In this document: positions 14,181 through 64,000 of the stretch, one piece after another
Numbering within the stretch: position 1 is the first letter of the stretch
Layout: the number at the start of each line of letters is the position of its first letter
From: Octopus vulgaris
Lineage: Eukaryota
NCBI GenBank assembly: GCA_951406725.2
Contig: OX597820.1
Location: 71,982,001 to 72,046,000, forward strand
Length of the DNA: 64,000 bases
Direction of reading: 5' to 3'
Made by a program: the position numbers and the translations under genes
Notes under the pieces: generated by a model
Databases searched by the model: none
What the model was told of the DNA's origin: nothing
The model's input: only the letters and a program-made list of their open reading frames with translations

Positions 14181-14771
14181 TAGATATAGATATAGATATA
14201 TATGTATATATAAAATGAAGAACTCCAGCAATTTGCTTAATAATATATTTTGTTTCTATTGGTATTGGCTATTTTGAAATATCTGGGTTTCATAATTACT
14301 GCTTTTCCATGCTATTCTTTCTATTCACAGCTGCATGCTAGGAAATTGTCTCCTTAACTGCAATTTTTATCTTATAACCTATATTTCAAGATGCCAAACA
14401 ATACATTAGTTCCACCCTGTCCACCTCTACATTTTTATCACTTACCTTCTGACAAACTTATCCATATAGCTTCTGGTTATAGATTTATGTTTTCTCATTA
14501 GTGATATATAATTTTATAGTAAATTCTATCAATATTAAAAGGATTTATACTTGTGTAAAATCTGTTCAGATTCTGAATTACTGTATTGAATATACTTTTG
14601 TTTTCCAAACTTTAGCTATTTTATAGATTATTTACATGATAAGAATTTTAGAAAGTTTGAGAGACATGAAGTAAATTACTTTTTTAATGGTGAAACTAAA
14701 GTCAATAAAGCTATAGATAATAGTGTGTCAAATATTGGGATAAAAATCCCTTTGGATGGAAAATAGTTAAA

Positions 14772-14843
14772 GGCTACCCATGGGACACAAACTCACATCT
14801 TTTGTAAACATTGCAGATATTCTAACCATTACACCAAAGTAAC
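14772..14843 (-). pseudogene. Degenerate tRNA-like sequence (tRNA pseudogene or SINE head)
   Basis: gttactttggtgtaatggttagaatatctgcaatgtttacaaaagatgtgagtttgtgtcccatgggtagcc: A-box-like D arm and a GTTACTT/GGGTAGC acceptor-like stem; inverted homolog of 15054-15125. Confidence 0.5.
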
Positions 14844-15053
14844 ATTTTGAATTTTTTCTCCACTTATTTAGAAGCTTTGTTCTTATAAGTGAAATTTGTA
14901 AATTGTTTACAACAATTTTAGAAACTTTGTGAGATGTGAAACAAATTATATTTTTAATAGGGAAACATAAAGTCAATAGGGCCATAAATAGTAGCAAACA
15001 ACTTATAATTATCTTTTCAAGAACAATGCTTTTTAATGGAGAAAATCTGAAAT

Positions 15054-15125
15054 GTTGCTTTGATGTAATGGTTAGAATGTCTGTCATACTTACAGAATTT
15101 GTGGGTTCAAGTCCCAAGATAGCCC
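15054..15125 (+). pseudogene. Degenerate tRNA-like sequence (Val-TAC-like anticodon arm)
   Basis: D-arm-like TGATGTAATGGTTAG; anticodon stem TCTGT/ACAGA with 7-nt loop CATACTT; T arm GTGGGTTCAAGTCCCA. The acceptor stem is imperfect, so it is not called functional. Confidence 0.55.
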
Positions 15126-15439
15126 TCAATTTTTTCCCATCTAAAGGTTTTCTTACCCAGTTTTGGAGAGTATCAAAAAGCATGGAGAAGGATAAAGAGG
15201 AAATGGCAATTGAATACCCAGTATAGCTGTTTCAAAAAGTCTGCCTCTTTGGTATGGCCAAAATTATGAGGAAAGTACTAGATACTTGAGAAAAATAGCT
15301 TGGCATTGTAGCCTGCACATAGCAAACTTGTTACTCATGCAAGACTCCAGAAATTCCAACAAAACCCAAATTAAAAGAATAATAATGATGATGATGATGA
15401 CAACGATGATAACAATGATGATTAAAATAATAGCAATAA

Positions 15440-42898: not shown

Positions 42899-45030
42899 TA
42901 ATTGTTGTTGTCCATATCTTCTGCAATATCCATGAATAAGCACATTTATTTAACATTTCCTGGGATGTGTTTGATTGCTGGAAAAAAAATGAGAAGAGAA
43001 AAGAAGAAAGTCGTATTTTATGAGTAATTATTTTAACTTAATTATGCATTGCCAATTAATTAGCACTATAATTTGTTTTGATTTTTTTCTTTCTAACTCC
43101 ATTAACTGATGTTTAATCATTCAGTGGTCATTCAAATAAAATAAGAAGACAGCTAGAAATGTATAAATGCTGCTCCAAAAATATATGTGTTTATACAGTG
43201 GCTGAAGAGATGTGCAGTTAATTTACACTAAGAATGGCTGATACTCCATCATGATGTTTATCTTGTCAAAGAATAGTTACTCATCATCATCATCATCACC
43301 ATCATCACCATCATCATCATCGTCATCATTTAGTATCTGTTTACCATGCTGGCACAGGTTAGACAGTTTGACTGGAAACTGGTAAACCAGAGAGCCATAC
43401 CAGGTTCCAGTCCAGTTTGGCTTGATTTCTATGGATGGATTTCCTTCCTAACACTAACCACTCCAAAAGTGTAATGGGTGCCTTTTACATGTCACCGGTA
43501 TGGGTGCCTTTTATGTGTCACCAGGAAAGGTGCCTTTTATGTCTCACTGGCATGGGTGCTTTTTACATGTCACTGGTAATGGCTATGACTAGAATTTCAT
43601 TTGGCTTGACATGTCTTCTCAAGCACAGCTAAATTTTCAAAGGTCTCACTCACAAAATAAAGTGTGTATCCATCAAAATAAGCATTAAAAATATTTCCAT
43701 CCATCCATTCATACATGAAACCATTTGCACAAAAACCTAGAAATACTTGGTTTCACAGAAAAAGAGCAAAGGTAACTCATGCTGACTCTCTAAATCCAGT
43801 CTATTAGTGGCACAGTGAAAATTTGTAAGACATTCTCAAAGTTCTACATGAGAGATTTTTATGTGAATAGATGCACATGCTTGGGTGTATGCATCGACAG
43901 TTCAACCATCACACCAACTTGATCGCATATTTATGAACACCAGGAAATCTCTAAACTCAAAATGTCTGGTTGCTTTCTTATCAACCAGCTTGAACTTTCT
44001 CAAGATCTAAAATCAAACTAAAAAAGACGAATCATACATACAGGTTGTGGTAATGAAGTCCAATGAAATAGTGATATTTTGAAATCATTTAATATGTACA
44101 TTTCAGGTCTGCCTAATGTATAATAGGGAATGCATCCACTATGTAAGACCTTCCTCAGTTAAAACATTTCAACACATGCACACACACACACACACACACA
44201 CATGCACACACATACATCTTCATTGTTTTAATAGCTTCTGTAGTCTTCTATGGACCTTTGCTCTCACCTGTCACCCTAGGTATTGCCATAGTGGTGCGTG
44301 ATACACAAAAGCTGTACATGAATACTTGTAAAAGAATTCCACAAGATTTCTGAGTAGTAATCATCATTGTCATTTAATGTCTATCTTCCTATCTGGTATG
44401 GGTTGGACAGTTTGATAGATCCAATTGGTTTAAGGACTGCATTGTGCTCGCATGTTTGCTTCAGCATATTTTCTATAGCTGGATGCCCTTCCTAACACCA
44501 ACCATTTTATAGTGAGTACTGGGTTTTTCTCTTTTCATGGCACCAGCACTAGTGAAGTCACTACATAAATTGTGAGACTAAAAATGCTTTTGACCAAATG
44601 GGTCTACAATAAAGAGGGAGGCAGCCTTATGCTAGATAATGATGGATTAATGTCTGAGAGAAGGGGACCAGAGCAGAAAAGGTTCTGAGCTGAAGGAGAG
44701 CCACATAACAACTCATATTAAAGAAAAGAGGAGGGTTGGAGTGGACAGAGGAGGTGATAAGCACTCGTGCCAGTGCCACATAAAATACACTTGTGCCAGT
44801 GCCACATGCATACATGTATGCATGCACACATGCTTGTGTGTGTGTGTATGTTTATGCGTGTTTGCATGTGTGTGTGTGTTTGTGTGTGCTTCTGGTTTCA
44901 GTCATTGGACAGCAGTCATACTGAAGGGTTTAGTTGAGTAAAAGGATTCCAGTATTTATTTCATTCAGTACCTATTTAGATAAAATGGACTTGCTGCATT
45001 TTATCATTGCTACAAAACTGACTGCTAAAC

Positions 45031-45073
<43 letters not shown>

Positions 45074-45074
45074 A

Positions 45075-45405
45075 TTGAAGAAAATGGAATCAGCAAGAAG
45101 GAATACAGTTAGGCAGTTATTTTTTAATCACTACAATTGTTTCCACACAACGTAGTTCTCCAAAAACTACAGGTATTAAGTTATGCAACTGTTTTTTTGG
45201 GAGAACTACATTGTGTGGAAACAATTACAGTGACTCAAAAATAACTTTCCAACTGTACACCTTCTTGTTGACTCCAATTTCTTCAAATTTATATTCACAC
45301 ACTTGGAAGTATATAATAATGCTACTGGATAGTACGGGGAAATTCTGAGGGTGGATGAGCTTTATAAGGTACCCTGCCCCATTCCTAACAGAATATACTG
45401 TAACT
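45075..45405. repeat. Fold-back element: arms ~45075-45166 and ~45193-45286, unique tail to ~45405, in (TA)n
   Basis: Arms are diverged reverse complements; both outer ends meet (TA)n. Confidence 0.85.
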
Positions 45406-46126: not shown

Positions 46127-48870
46127 TAGTTTTATTTTATTTTTATAGCGTGCTTTCACTTCACTACCGAGCGCAGCTCTGTGTGCCTTGGGTATGTGCT
46201 GTGATTTGTTGTGATGCTCTGATGGTTATTGTATGGAAAGTGTTCTGCGTAGGATGTGTGCAGTGCCTAGTAGTGCAATTTTCTGTATGTTATATGTGTT
46301 TGTAATTCCTGGTGTTTTTGTTATGTATTTGTCTGAATATTTTTTTATCATGCCTAATGCACCTACTATGATAGGAATTGTTTCTGTTTTCAGGTTCCAC
46401 ATTCTAGTTATCTCTATTTCCAGGTCTTTGTATTTTGAGAGTTTCTCCATTTCTTTTAGAGACACGTTGTCATCTGCCGGTATTGATACATCAATTAGAA
46501 AGCATTTTTTTCTTCATGATCTCTGACAACTATATCTGGTCTGTTGGCCTTAATTTCTCTATCTGTGTGTATCGGCATATCCCAGAGTATGGTTGCTTTC
46601 TCGTTTTCTGTGACCTTTTCTGGTGTGTGCCTATACCATCTTTTTTCTGTTGTTATTCCATAATGTTGGCATAGCTTCCAATGTATGTAGGTTCCAACTC
46701 TGTCATGTCTGTGAATATATTCCTTTTTAGCCAGGACTGGGCAGCTAGAGATAATATGATTTATTGTTTCTTGTCCATCTCCACATATTCTGCAGTTACT
46801 TGTAATATTTCTTTTCATTACGTGTTTTTGGTAATTTCTGGTGGGGAGGCTTTGGTCTTGTGCTGCAATTAAAAATCCCTCTGTTTCTGCTTTGAGTCCT
46901 GAGCCTCTCAACCATTGCTGGGATTTTTCTTTGTCTATTTCTTTTGCGTTTAGTTTAGTGCAGTATTTACCATGAAGGGGCTTTTCTTGCCATCGTTTTA
47001 TCATGGCTCGTTGCTGTTCTATTTTTAGTTTGGATTTCATTTGTTTTATAGCTTTTGTTGTTTCTTCATCATCTTCTTCTTCTTTGTGTTTATTAGGTGG
47101 TATGATTTCTTGTTTGTATTTGCCAGCTTCCTTAAATACTGAGAACAGTTTTTTGTTTTGCTCGTGTTTTGCTGCTATCTGGATCAGTTTTCCTTCCTTC
47201 TGAAGTAGGTATTTTTGCAGTCCTATGGTGGTTATTTTATAGTAGTTTTCCAGCTGTATAAGGCCTCTACCACCTTCTATACGTTGTATATATAGTCTTT
47301 CTATGTCAGATTTTGGGTGATGCATCCTAGATCCTGTCAGTATTTTTCTTGTTTTCCTATCTATTTTGGACAGTTCATTTCGTGTCCAGTTAAGGATATT
47401 GTAGCTGTAACTTATAACTGAGACAGCTAAAGTGTTGATACCTATTATCTTGTTTTTAGCATTGAGCTCTGTTTTTAGTATTGATCTAACTCGTCTATAA
47501 TATTCTTTTTTATTTTCTCTTTCATTTGTGTGTGTTGTGTCTTATCTAGTTCATGGATTCCTAAGTATTTGTAAGTTTGGCTTTGGTCTAATTCTTTTAT
47601 TTCATTGGTTTTATCTAGTGTGATGTTGTTACTCTTAACTAGTTTTCCTCTTTTCATGGTTACTTTGGCGCATTTTTCTAATCCAAATTTCATATCTATT
47701 TCTTTGGTAAATCCATGAACTGTCTTTAATAGTGTTTCCAGCTGTTTGTCATTTGCAGCGTATAGTTTTAGGTCATCCATATATAAAAGGTGGCTGATCG
47801 TTTTGCCGTAACATTTATATCCGCATCCAGTTCTATTTAGCATATCAGATAGAGGTGACAGTGCCAAGCAGAAAAGGAGTGGAGAGAGCGTGTCTCCCTG
47901 GAATATTCCTCTTCTAATGGGGATGTCTTTGGTTTTCATGAGTCCCTCTTTTGTTTGGAGGTGTAGGACTGTTTGCCATTTATTCATAGAGTGCTCTATG
48001 AATTTTATGATTGTTGGTGCTACTTTGTTAATGGCTAGTGTTTCGAGGATCCATGTGTGGGGGATGCTATCAAACGCCTTTTGTAGTCAATCCAGGCCAT
48101 ACTGAGGCCTTTCTTCTTTCTGTGGCTGTCTTCAGTTACGGCTTTATTAATCATTAGTTGATCTTTACAGCCATATGAGCCCTTGTGGCATCCGTTCTGC
48201 TCTTCTGGGAACAGTTTGTTTTCGTCCAGGTGCTTGTTCAGCCTTTGCGATATCACTGCAGTAAATGCCTTGAAAATAGTAGGGAGGCAGGTTATTGGTC
48301 TGTAGTTTTCTGGTTTTGTTGTTTCATTTGATTTGGGAATTAAGATGGTTTTCCCCTTCGTGAGCCATTCAGGCATTGTCTCTGGCTCTGCTAGTATGCT
48401 GTTAAAGTTTTCAGCCAGCTTTTTGTGCATTCCTGTTAGATATTTCAACCAGAAGTTGGGGATCTTGTCATGCTCAGGTGCCTTCCAGTTGCTTAGTTTT
48501 TGCAGTGCCTGGGTGACCTCTTCAGTTGTTATGGGGGTCCAAAGTTGTTCAGATGCCGAGTTTGTTATTTTCATACTCCTTTTTTTTGGCTGTTCGTTCG
48601 CCGACCATATTTCTCTCCAGAATTCTTCCAATTCTTCTGCCGTTGGTGCTGCAGTGACTTCTATTTTATTTTTGCCCAGTTCTTGGTAGAACTTTTTGGG
48701 GTCGGAGTTGAACTTTTTGTTCTGTTCAAAGAAGCGTTGGCGTTTCTCGTACCGGCGGATCCTTTGAGCTTTGGCAAGGATATCTTGCTTCAGCTTTTCT
48801 TTTATCTCCGGCAAATCTTTTTCTGTGATGTTATATTTGCGGAGCATTTTTGTTCTCTTTTTGTTGCTTA
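46124..48870 (-). mobile_element. Young 5'-truncated R4/Dong-clade retrotransposon (RT, CCHC, REL), three -1 frameshifts
   Basis: Four ORFs join into one protein: 48847-48035 (PENYRPITCL, GCKDQL, AWIDYK), 47987-47475 (GIFQGDTLSPLLFC, YMDDLKL, FGLEKC, YKYLG), 47325-46495 (CRICGDGQETINHIISSC, RHDRV, NRPDIVV) and 46465-46226 (KYKDLEIEI). (TAA)n at the 3' end. Confidence 0.95.
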
Positions 48871-49000
48871 GTAGAGTTGCTTGTTTGCTGATTGTTGCTT
48901 AGTAGAGTTGCTTATTATTATTATTATTATTATTTTCACTATCATTATTATTATTATTTTTATCATTATTATTATTATTATCATTATTATTATTATTATT

Positions 49001-62064: not shown

Positions 62065-62314
62065 TTAAACACCACATTGCCACAAAATGTAAGCAACATG
62101 CCAAGTAACTAATCTTACATATCTATAGTATTTGCAGGTCTTGATATCATTCTTATCAATCTTTAATCCAAATCAAGATCTTAATATCTTTGAATAAAGA
62201 ATAAAATAAACAGTTATATATATATATATATGTACATACATATATATATGTGTGTGTGTGTATATATATATATGTATGTGTATGTATATATATGTATATA
62301 TATATGTATGTATG

Positions 62315-62383
<69 letters not shown>

Positions 62384-62400
62384 GTATGTATATATGTATG

Positions 62401-62815
62401 TATCAAAGTATCATTAGAGACAGAAATCCCATAAAATTCATCAAATCAGAATATAAATTCAACCATGTCATAGAATATTATATTCAATACTTACTATTCG
62501 TGTTCAAAGTTGTCAACCTTTACATCCTTCACAGCTGAGAGCATTGTAGTGATAACCTGATGCATGATCTCCACATATTCTACAAAGCTCTTCTTCAGTT
62601 GTTTTTTGTGTTCTGTTAGATCATTTTTGTGGTGTACTTTTCCAGGAATTCTATGACATGGTTGAATTTCTATTCTGATTTATGGGGATTTCTGTCTCTA
62701 AGGATACTTTGATATATATGTATATATTTATTGAGAATAATTCAACTAAATATTCTTAACTTGAATATCTCATCCCTGTGACGCCGGAATTGATATTCCA
62801 TTATTATTATAAAAT
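62401..62815. repeat. Fold-back element: arms ~62401-62476 and ~62648-62714, ~170-bp spacer, tail to ~62815, in (TA)n
   Basis: tatcaaagtatcattagagacagaaatccc...aaccatgtcatagaat versus attctatgacatggtt...gggatttctgtctctaaggatactttgata. Confidence 0.9.
62513..62620 (-). pseudogene. Nuclear receptor NR1H (EcR/LXR/FXR-like) DNA-binding-domain fragment, first C4 zinc finger
   Basis: Manual translation [36 protein letters not shown]-x2-C-x13-C-x2-C with P-box CEGCKG and the EcR/FXR-type ASGYHYNAL; bounded by stops; second finger absent. Confidence 0.9.
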
Positions 62816-62839
62816 TATATATGTATGTATATATATACA

Positions 62840-62934
<95 letters not shown>

Positions 62935-63283
62935 GAAAGAAGGTTTGAAAATGCAATTTTAAAAGATGTTTATTTACTTTACCGGTTTCACTCTTTAGAA
63001 AAAGATTGTCAAAAGTAACATGTAGAAGTTTGGTTGCATTAATTATTGGTTGTTACAAATTGCTACATTACATATATACAGTCTTTGGTAACAGGGACAT
63101 GTTAAGGACATAAAATCATGTCCCTGTTACCAAAGACTGTATATATGTAATGTAGCAATTTGTAACAACCAATAATTAACGCAACCAAACTTCTACATGT
63201 TACTTTTGACAATCTTTTTGCAAAGAGTGAAAGCGGTAAAGTAAATAAACATCTTTTAAAATTGCATTTTCAAACCTTCTTTC
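62935..63283. repeat. Fold-back element: arms 62935-63101 and 63117-63283 (167 bp each), 15-nt loop, tail to ~63328, in (TA)n
   Basis: Near-perfect reverse-complement arms. Confidence 0.95.
62974..63018 (-). ncRNA. Hammerhead-like motif with variant core (mirror copy at 63200-63244, + strand)
   Basis: TTACTT-TTGACAA-TCTTT-ttct-AAAGA-gt-GAAA-CCGG-TA-AAGTAA: 6-bp stem I, stem II, palindromic stem III, GUA site; core UUGACAA instead of CUGANGA. Confidence 0.5.
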
Positions 63284-63348
63284 ATATATAATTCCACTTG
63301 TGTGGTACCCTACAACTCCACTTTGTTATATATATATATATGTATATA

Positions 63349-63590
63349 TACACATTATTTTCATTATTTACATTTGATGGATATTTGTCCTCATCTTGTT
63401 TGTTGTTAACACAACGTTTCAACTCATATACCCTCCAGCCTTCATCAGGTGTTTTGGGGAAATGATGAAGGCTGGAGGGTATATCAGCTGAAACGTGTTA
63501 ACAACAAACAAGATGAGGACAAATATCCATCAAATGTAAATGATGTAAATAATGTACATAATTCCTCATCTCTTAAATATAGAACTGTAG
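63349..63590. repeat. Fold-back element: arms ~63349-63447 and ~63463-63558, tail to ~63590, in (TA)n
   Basis: catttgatggatatttgtcctcatcttgtttgttgttaac... versus ...gttaacaacaaacaagatgaggacaaatatccatcaaatg. Confidence 0.9.
63408..63453 (-). ncRNA. Minimal type I hammerhead ribozyme motif (Penelope pLTR type)
   Basis: AACAC-CTGATGA-A-GGCT-ggagggtatatg-AGTT-GAAAC-GTT-GTGTT: 5-bp stem I, canonical CUGAUGA and GAAA, loopless palindromic stem III AACGTT. The other arm keeps stem II as GGCTG/CAGCT. Confidence 0.7.
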
Positions 63591-63606
63591 TATATATATA
63601 TATATA

Positions 63607-64000
63607 CAGGGGTTGGACAAATTATGGAACCACCAAACATCATAGCATCATAATTTTGAAATATCTATCAAAAGCTTGTTTATCTTTAGGTTTTGGGATT
63701 TATTATTAGTGTTGCTTAATATGTTTTACTAAAATTGCTGTTTCTTTTCAGATATCATCAGAAAAAGGTAATTAAAATTCATTAAAATGATAGACCTATC
63801 AGACTTTCAAAGAGGTCAAATTGTTGGTGCACATATGGCAGGCGCCAGCATAATGAAAACAGCTGAAATGTTTGGTGTATCAAGAAGAACTGTCTTGAAA
63901 GTAATGACAGCCTTTGAGAAAGAGGGAAGAACCTCCTTGAAACAAAACTCTGCAAGAAAACCAAAACTTTCAGATAGGGACCATTGGACTCTTACGCAAA
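63607..64000 (+). mobile_element. Tc1-family DNA transposon, 5' end
   Basis: TA|CAGGGGTTGGACAAATTATGG left-TIR-like start, followed by a transposase ORF. Confidence 0.85.
63787..64000 (+). CDS. Tc1-like transposase N-terminal HTH (partial, runs off the window)
   Basis: MIDLSDFQRGQIVGAHMAGASIMKTAEMFGVSRRTVLKVMTAFEKEGRTSLKQNSARKPKLSDRDHWTLTQ; LS.F.RG.IVG and GVSR.TV are Tc1 paired-like HTH motifs. Confidence 0.8.
   Translation, partial: MIDLSDFQRGQIVGAHMAGASIMKTAEMFGVSRRTVLKVMTAFEKEGRTSLKQNSARKPKLSDRDHWTLTQ

What the first reader, a model, noticed from the sequence alone, without database searches (positions are those of the whole stretch)
62401..62815. Nuclear-receptor (NR1H/EcR-like) zinc-finger fragment captured inside a fold-back element
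Seen: the spacer between two ~70-bp inverted arms reads [29 protein letters not shown] on the minus strand, and the unit sits in (TA)n with the same arm-spacer-arm-tail layout as its hammerhead-bearing neighbours. Known: this is the first C4 finger and P-box of NR1H receptors (EcR/FXR [28 protein letters not shown]). Seen: homology stops at TGTAAAG|GT, before FFRRS, and splice signals are weak. Inference: that point may be an exon boundary, and the CAT (His for Arg) and upstream TGA look like CpG decay. This suggests a host transcription-factor fragment carried by a (TA)n-targeting non-autonomous retroelement, possibly as a multicopy family. Its transcripts could supply antisense or small RNA against the true receptor, and copies could inflate nuclear-receptor annotations.
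Basis: partly seen in the sequence, partly recalled or inferred. Interest (0 to 1): 0.78.

Follow-up and report, generated by a model that had tools for sequence, protein, structure and literature searches.

The report
Host exon caught in Penelope retrotransposon
A broken copy of a Penelope-like jumping gene holds, between its two inverted ends, a single 130-base piece of the host's ecdysone-receptor-like gene; the piece joins exactly where the exon ends and where the element's ribozyme is predicted to cut, so it was likely copied from RNA in a one-off accident and is not a spreading family.

Summary
The sequence is real, but the interpretation needs changing. The arms are the terminal repeat (pLTR) of a Hydra-type Penelope-like retrotransposon (64 arms genome-wide match a 24-base motif). 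The 130-base spacer occurs only here and in the true NR1H gene on another contig (96% identical), so no family carries it. Single contigs bridge its right junction in 4 of 4 runs under three organism labels; the left junction was not checked independently. At the left junction the last base of the host exon meets the first base after the element's predicted hammerhead cut. 61 of 64 arms run on past that site; only this copy and one self-fold-back locus stop there. Best reading (0.6): reverse transcriptase ran off a ribozyme-cut RNA, jumped onto NR1H RNA, and the product was sealed into the usual Penelope inversion. Enrichment of breaks at the cut site is not significant, and no RNA data were obtained. 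The fragment lies in the hairpin loop, so small RNA against the receptor is unlikely. Host DNA between Penelope repeats is published, and this scan noted a similar capture in another genome (e1-7789279). Modest interest.

The parts
62215..62402 (.). (TA)n-rich microsatellite, left half of the inferred target site
   Evidence: target duplication cannot be read inside the repeat
62403..62517 (-). Inverted, tail-less pLTR arm, element positions +1 to +115; its inner end (62517) is the first base after the predicted hammerhead cut
62516..62517 (-). 2-base overlap (GT) shared by the arm start and the NR1H splice donor; 3 bases (GTT) against the predicted spliced mRNA
62518..62647 (-). Captured 3' part of an NR1H exon (hinge-side residues, first C4 finger, P-box); 62518 is the last exon base; 5 differences in 137 bases from the gene at G000:C1:96933551-96933687
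62648..62652 (.). 5-base microhomology between the exon interior and the right arm (inversion junction)
   Evidence: bridged by single contigs in 4 of 4 runs
62648..62713 (+). Sense pLTR arm, 5'-truncated at element position +42
62714..62812 (+). TA-rich linker and one-sided tail, to about element position +210
   Evidence: 22 of 27 inverted copies have the tail on one arm only (hand tally)
62816..62931 (.). (TA)n microsatellite, right half of the inferred target site

Best explanation
This is a dead, doubly truncated insertion of a Hydra-type Penelope-like retrotransposon that carries one 130-base piece of an NR1H exon at its inversion junction, likely copied from NR1H RNA when reverse transcriptase ran off a ribozyme-cut element RNA. 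Shown: the identity of arms and insert, the single source, both junctions, the family layout. Inferred steps: (1) the endonuclease nicked both strands of a (TA)n tract; (2) one strand primed at the tail end, the other at the TA-rich arm end, giving the arm/arm+tail asymmetry; (3) the second cDNA copied 115 bases to the 5' end left by hammerhead cleavage; (4) it jumped onto NR1H RNA at the exon end, either onto a free exon 3' end or by pairing with the adjoining GU; (5) after about 135 bases it annealed to the first cDNA through 5 shared bases. The product lacks the ribozyme core and coding sequence, did not spread, and is decaying. Identity is near certain (about 0.95); the 0.6 is for the mechanism.
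For: Single source gene on another contig, with next exon 2.9 kb on and a weak ligand-binding-domain match further on. Arms are joined in other copies to RT motifs, a GIY-YIG-type endonuclease and a hammerhead motif. The motif is found in 3 of 2000 shuffles at stem II >= 5 bp and 0 of 2000 at >= 10 bp; sister subfamilies keep it with a compensatory A-U to G-C change in stem I (8 both-side changes, reached by 2 of 500 shuffles). Of 64 arms with the +1..+24 motif, 61 run on upstream and 3 break at +1: this copy and both arms of locus L075, a fold-back centred on the cut site. A break in +1..+3 has about 0.7% chance per arm (1.5% among arms broken within 100 bases). DNA identity to the gene ends within 2 bases of the donor. 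The exon is in the same sense as the arm it follows, as an RNA template predicts. Self-derived switches occur in other copies (L023, L025, L026). [quoted passage not shown]
Against: One event, noticed after the fact. Enrichment of breaks at the cut site is not significant: 3 seen, 0.84 expected, P = 0.053, and P = 0.20 without this copy (hand tally). The hammerhead is atypical (U.U at 10.1-11.1 in this family), Rfam did not list a hammerhead among the 150 of 224 rows shown, and within-family covariation is nil; the between-subfamily test does not control for relatedness. PMC11167929 found cleavage unnecessary in vitro and no RNA reads ending at the cut. With a 2-base GT match, 13 to 16 GT sites per 200 bases were on offer, so hitting the donor has roughly a 1 in 13 chance. 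No intron is skipped, so an RNA template is not proven. The left junction was not spanned by any contig piece listed (259 pieces not shown). PMC3846280 proposes self-priming on antisense templates, under which the orientation argument weakens.
Confidence: 0.6

Rival explanations
1. The exon and the element RNA were fused as RNA before reverse transcription, by trans- or cis-splicing to the UAG beside the cut site, or by ligation to the ribozyme's 5'-OH end.
For: Exon ends at its donor and is in sense with the arm. LINE-1/mRNA chimeras often end precisely at donors, some without an acceptor in the element (PMC13174262).
Against: Canonical splicing to that UAG would give one G fewer than the window has; the 40 bases upstream show no pyrimidine tract; no family copy lies in 120 kb around the gene; the next intron is only 2.9 kb. 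Ligation by RtcB needs a 3' or cyclic phosphate, which a spliced-off exon does not have (own knowledge).
Confidence: 0.17
2. The fragment is DNA filler, copied from the NR1H locus by repair synthesis while the insertion was being sealed; the matches to exon end and cut site are chance.
Against: Source is on another contig; DNA copying has no reason to stop at a donor, to start at the predicted cut, or to take the sense orientation.
Confidence: 0.18
3. One reading: a non-autonomous element carries the receptor fragment as cargo, multiplies, and makes antisense or small RNA against the receptor.
For: Strong hairpin; locus shared under three organism labels.
Against: Insert found once outside the gene; 1 of 27 inverted copies has a host exon; fragment in the loop; ribozyme core absent; a stop codon, CpG changes and a 1-base insertion in two other runs fit neutral decay. 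RNA was not tested.
Confidence: 0.03
4. Assembly artefact joining a gene exon into a repeat.
For: Lies between long (TA)n tracts; left junction not independently spanned.
Against: Five differences from the gene; right junction bridged in 4 of 4 runs from 3 studies, 3 of them other than the best holder, with their own differences.
Confidence: 0.02

Closest known systems
Hydra clade of C-terminal EN+ Penelope-like elements (Craig et al. 2021, PMC8557442; passages and section 11 read)
   Same: CxCX5C linker, no CCHH, CxxC and CxH around the conserved E and N, DKT-type motif, hammerhead, insertion in (TA)n, inverted 5'-truncated copy with one-sided tail.
   Different: Tail here is about 95 bases rather than 30-40; stem II of the hammerhead carries a 50-base insert; this copy holds host cargo. 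No tree was built.
Host sequences between Penelope pLTRs in Adineta vaga (Arkhipova et al. 2013, PMC3846280; passages read)
   Same: Unrelated host sequence framed by pLTRs.
   Different: There a whole intron-containing gene between direct pLTRs with a target duplication; here a 130-base exon piece at the inversion junction, ending at the donor and the predicted ribozyme cut.
mRNA/LINE-1 chimeric insertions (Law and Burns 2026, PMC13174262; passages read)
   Same: Exon ends exactly at a splice donor and is fused in sense to the retroelement's 5' end (6 of 17 cases).
   Different: LINE-1, mostly first exons and near full-length elements, ascribed to splicing; here an internal exon, a Penelope ribozyme site and a second, inverted arm.
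[quoted passage not shown] 2013, PMC3774820; passages read)
   Same: Host mRNA sequence at a 5' end defined by a self-cleaving ribozyme.
Internal, two-site initiation of Penelope reverse transcription (Frangieh et al. 2024, PMC11167929; parts 1-2 of 4 read)
   Same: Two start sites explain arm versus arm+tail ends; both strands are cut and extended.
   Different: That study found hammerhead cleavage dispensable and no reads at the cut; this fossil would suggest that cut RNA is sometimes the template.

Membership tests
EN+ Penelope-like element (the arms) | [quoted passage not shown] | tested here: met
   L118: RT motif YRDD, endonuclease, hammerhead half, arm in order on one strand; L051, L044 endonuclease to arm. 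Read by motif; Pfam gave no hit; Atlas lead PF01541 on 18% of one cluster.
EN+ Penelope-like element (the arms) | Inverted 5'-truncated copy with a tail at one end | tested here: met
   22 of 27 inverted copies, hand tally
EN+ Penelope-like element (the arms) | Target-site duplication | tested here: inconclusive
   Unreadable inside (TA)n
Hydra clade | CxCX5C linker, CCHH absent | tested here: met
   CNCRDKNHC; no cysteine pair between the VVY and YIG halves (definition)
Hydra clade | CxxC and CxH flanking conserved E and N | tested here: met
   L044 CLLCVHE...LLN...KCKH
Hydra clade | DKT in place of DKG; RWK motif | tested here: inconclusive
   SDKT in sister copy L103, SDKS in L118; RLKWK / RPKWK rather than RWK
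Hydra clade | Insertion in (TA)n | tested here: met
   This copy and most 3' flanks
Hydra clade | Placement in the Hydra clade on an RT tree | not tested
   No reference proteins were fetched
Type I minimal hammerhead (family, upstream of +1) | CUGANGA, GAAA, NUH, stems I-II, palindromic stem III | tested here: met
Type I minimal hammerhead (family, upstream of +1) | G10.1-C11.1 pair | tested here: not met
   U-A in 4 and unpaired in 7 of 11 rows; so it is filed as hammerhead-like
Type I minimal hammerhead (family, upstream of +1) | Self-cleavage at the predicted site | not testable with these tools
   Needs an in vitro assay or RNA end mapping
NR1H (EcR/FXR/LXR) for the source gene | DNA-binding domain closest to NR1H members; ligand-binding domain downstream | tested here: met
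   Both exons best match EcR and FXR; weak PF00104 match at C1:96942574, E 0.07; no tree
Non-autonomous family or retrozyme carrying the fragment | Cargo amplified; hammerhead kept in tandem units | tested here: not met
   Insert single-copy; core absent in this copy
Pack-TIR / Pack-MULE DNA transposon | Fixed, symmetric terminal repeats tied to a transposase | tested here: not met
   Arms have variable inner ends and a one-sided tail and lead into RT and endonuclease

The most novel reading that the evidence does not exclude
The junction is a fossil of two natural RNA ends meeting: a Penelope hammerhead cut its RNA in the germline, and the telomerase-like reverse transcriptase jumped end to end onto the free 3' end of a spliceosome-released exon. 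That would be genomic evidence that Penelope hammerheads cut in vivo and that their products serve as templates, and would give a way to survey both from genomes alone.
Probability: 0.25. Interest if true: 0.62.

Novelty: new variant of a known kind. Interest (0 to 1): 0.36.

Why it matters
For the receptor it probably does not matter: one dead fragment and one spurious domain hit. For Penelope biology it offers a test of an open point: what the pLTR hammerhead does. The one in vitro study read here found cleavage dispensable and no RNA ends at the site. If truncations and captures pile up at predicted cut sites across the thousands of related endonuclease-bearing copies in this genome (5478 candidates, 150 scored), cut RNA is a real template and Penelope elements can shuffle exon pieces by template jumping.

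Tried and rejected
Rfam: nothing at gathering score in the window; on 12 loci only hairpin and microsatellite matches below gathering score among 150 of 224 rows shown. Within-family covariation: none. Pfam for the endonuclease and RT pieces: no hit. My Pfam query of the window fragment was out of frame and gave nothing; one search has the valid score. Other exon-type junctions at the cut site: pattern search found only this copy against 25 ordinary ones. Source element near the gene: none in 120 kb. Spacers in other inverted copies: 9 checked besides this one; 7 match the element, one is a 19-base AT filler, one looks by eye like a later DNA-transposon end. 5' flanks of 22 single-arm copies were read by eye and not searched in the genome, so captures there are not excluded. 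Host gene around the locus: 80 of 346 open frames scanned gave only RT and transposase pieces; whether the site is intronic is unknown. Contig depth of this copy was about half that of the gene in two runs (4.08 vs 7.93; 29.7 vs 51.4); the tool warns that depth is no copy number, so nothing is drawn from it. Helitron/DINE, MITE and Pack-TIR readings were dropped once RT and endonuclease were found. No paper on exon capture at a Penelope hammerhead cut site appeared in searches (open-access library only; no supplements read; Craig 2021 file S2 and Law and Burns Table S5 may bear on novelty).

Full report
Observation. The fold-back is far beyond chance (z = -10.7, 0 of 100 shuffles), and a genome-wide PF00105 search scores the fragment at 41.4 bits.

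Two origins. Searching the genome with the 410 bases gave 119 matches from 40 of 229 candidates scored; all but one of the other places match only the ends, and one matches only the middle. Searching with the middle alone gave 2 hits: this window and G000:C1:96933551-96933687 at 96%. That place is a real exon: a predicted acceptor 258 bases upstream, a GT donor, and a next exon 2.9 kb on that begins GFFRRS. Both exons best match EcR and FXR among solved structures, and a weak ligand-binding-domain match follows (E 0.07). The copy differs at 5 of 137 bases: two CpG changes, two other G-to-A, and TTA to TGA.

The carrier. In longer copies the arm is preceded by about 900 bases of untranslated sequence, an endonuclease and RT motifs. 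The endonuclease has CxCX5C, lacks CCHH and has CxxC and CxH motifs, which define the Hydra clade of Penelope-like elements in PMC8557442 (section 11). Pfam does not recognise these pieces and I built no tree, so the clade rests on motifs. In a hand tally of 27 inverted copies, 22 have one arm ending at about +117 to +134 and the other at about +210. This is the inverted-pLTR-plus-tail layout of PMC8557442 and fits the two start sites shown in vitro in PMC11167929. The window's unit is such a copy with both arms heavily truncated.

The ribozyme. Upstream of the arm the family reads GAC CUGAAGA, a 12-13 bp stem with an inner hairpin, GAAA, a palindromic CACGUG, UA, then GUC. This matches the minimal type I hammerheads of PMC4209133 except that 10.1-11.1 is U.U. 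My descriptor hit 3 of 2000 shuffles, and 0 at the observed stem length class. Sister subfamilies keep the core and change stem I from A-U to G-C on both sides (2 of 500 shuffles, relatedness not controlled). Within the family there is no covariation, and Rfam does not report it. Cleavage is predicted, not shown.

The junction. The window's left arm begins at the first base after the predicted cut, and the base before it is the last base of the NR1H exon. The overlap is GT against the gene and GTT against the predicted mRNA, so the switch lies within 0-3 bases. All 64 genomic matches to the +1..+24 motif were read: 61 continue into family sequence, and 3 break at +1, namely this arm and the two arms of L075, a fold-back centred on the palindrome at the cut. 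A third locus, L057, breaks at -1. Against a background of 42 breaks within 100 bases among 85 arms, 3 at -1..+3 gives P = 0.053, and 0.20 without the index copy (ten loci fetched later were not in that tally). So the coincidence is unlikely for one arm (about 1%) but a hotspot is not established. The other junction is inside the exon and shares 5 bases with the right arm.

Reality and age. Single contigs bridge the right junction with more than 31 bases on each side in 4 of 4 runs, under organism labels A, B, A, C and 3 studies; X1 may be the assembly's own sample. Two runs show a 1-base insertion in the fragment. No listed piece spans the left junction, and 259 pieces were not shown; that junction and expression remain unchecked.

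Mechanism. Read on the + strand, arm and exon are both antisense, as one continuous cDNA would be. The simplest account is priming from both nicks, run-off at the ribozyme-cut end, a jump to NR1H RNA at the exon end, and annealing to the other cDNA (0.6). Free exon ends exist as splicing intermediates in nascent RNA (mentioned in PMC8122139); pairing with the adjoining GU is as possible, with 13-16 GT sites per 200 bases on offer. RNA fusion before copying (0.17) has precedent in LINE-1 (PMC13174262) but predicts one G fewer, and no family copy lies within 120 kb of the gene. DNA filler (0.18) cannot be excluded because no intron is skipped. PMC3846280 suggests antisense self-priming for Penelope, which would weaken the orientation argument.

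Function. Probably none. One of 27 inverted copies carries a host exon, the insert did not spread, and it sits in the hairpin loop, so Dicer-type processing of the stem would give element sequence (own knowledge). A piRNA route is untested.

Novelty. Host sequence between Penelope pLTRs is published (PMC3846280), as are exon-end fusions to LINE-1 (PMC13174262) and a putative template jump at a ribozyme-defined R2 end (PMC3774820). I found no report of an exon end joined at a Penelope hammerhead cut. Papers seen: PMC4209133 and PMC11167929 parts 1-2 of 4; 10.64898/2026.07.22.740005 part 1 of 5; PMC8557442 passages and section 11; passages only of PMC13174262, PMC13282606, PMC3774820, PMC8122139, PMC3846280; no supplements. 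Verdict: new variant of a known kind, interest 0.36.

Noticed in passing
G000:C6:40512781-40521750 (L129 1781 to L130 750) and on to 40529348: One stop-free frame of 2990 codons holds 9 nuclear-receptor first-finger motifs by regex (8 + 1), and four more lie in short frames within the next 8 kb; 14 PF00105 matches in 17 kb. A receptor-like gene with many DNA-binding domains; one paper search (listing only) showed nothing specific. Possibly of more interest than the finding itself.
   Followed up: partly
L075:2185-2336 (G000:C3:66155184-66155335): Family copy folded back exactly on the GTCGAC palindrome at the predicted ribozyme cut; would fit two cDNAs that both ran off the cut end and annealed.
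   Followed up: partly
L023:644-1667 (G000:C2:55.268 Mb) and L026:1401-1418: Internal jumps within the element: L023 joins position -931 to -12 through a shared GAAA; L026's 16-base spacer matches the same -935 region.
   Followed up: partly
window 62928-63290 and 63352-63555: Neighbouring fold-backs of other families with short tails and decayed hammerhead cores. Further fold-backs at 22-389, 45067-45294 and 14728-15167 gave no clear core.
   Followed up: partly
window 46498-48898 (-): Frame-broken LINE-type RT with zf-RVT.
   Followed up: no
window 63604-64000 (+): Start of a Tc1/mariner-like element with a helix-turn-helix frame at 63772-63999, inserted in (TA)n.
   Followed up: no
window 44092-44158 (-): Only strict hammerhead-descriptor hit in the window (stem II 6 bp, stem I 5 bp); may be chance.
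   Followed up: no
L105 minus-strand frames 788-2065 (G000:C10:17.94 Mb): Frames that look by eye like a Helitron Rep/helicase beside a Hydra-type copy; label recalled, not tested.
   Followed up: no
Hydra-type hammerheads in L105, L106, L109-L112, L115, L117: A hammerhead variant with U.U or U-A at 10.1-11.1 and a 50-base structured loop II, kept across subfamilies and missed by Rfam.
   Followed up: partly
G000:C2:76468520-76469414: A zf-C4 match with two TGA and one with a TAA beside a 634-codon frame; possibly a broken receptor gene.
   Followed up: no
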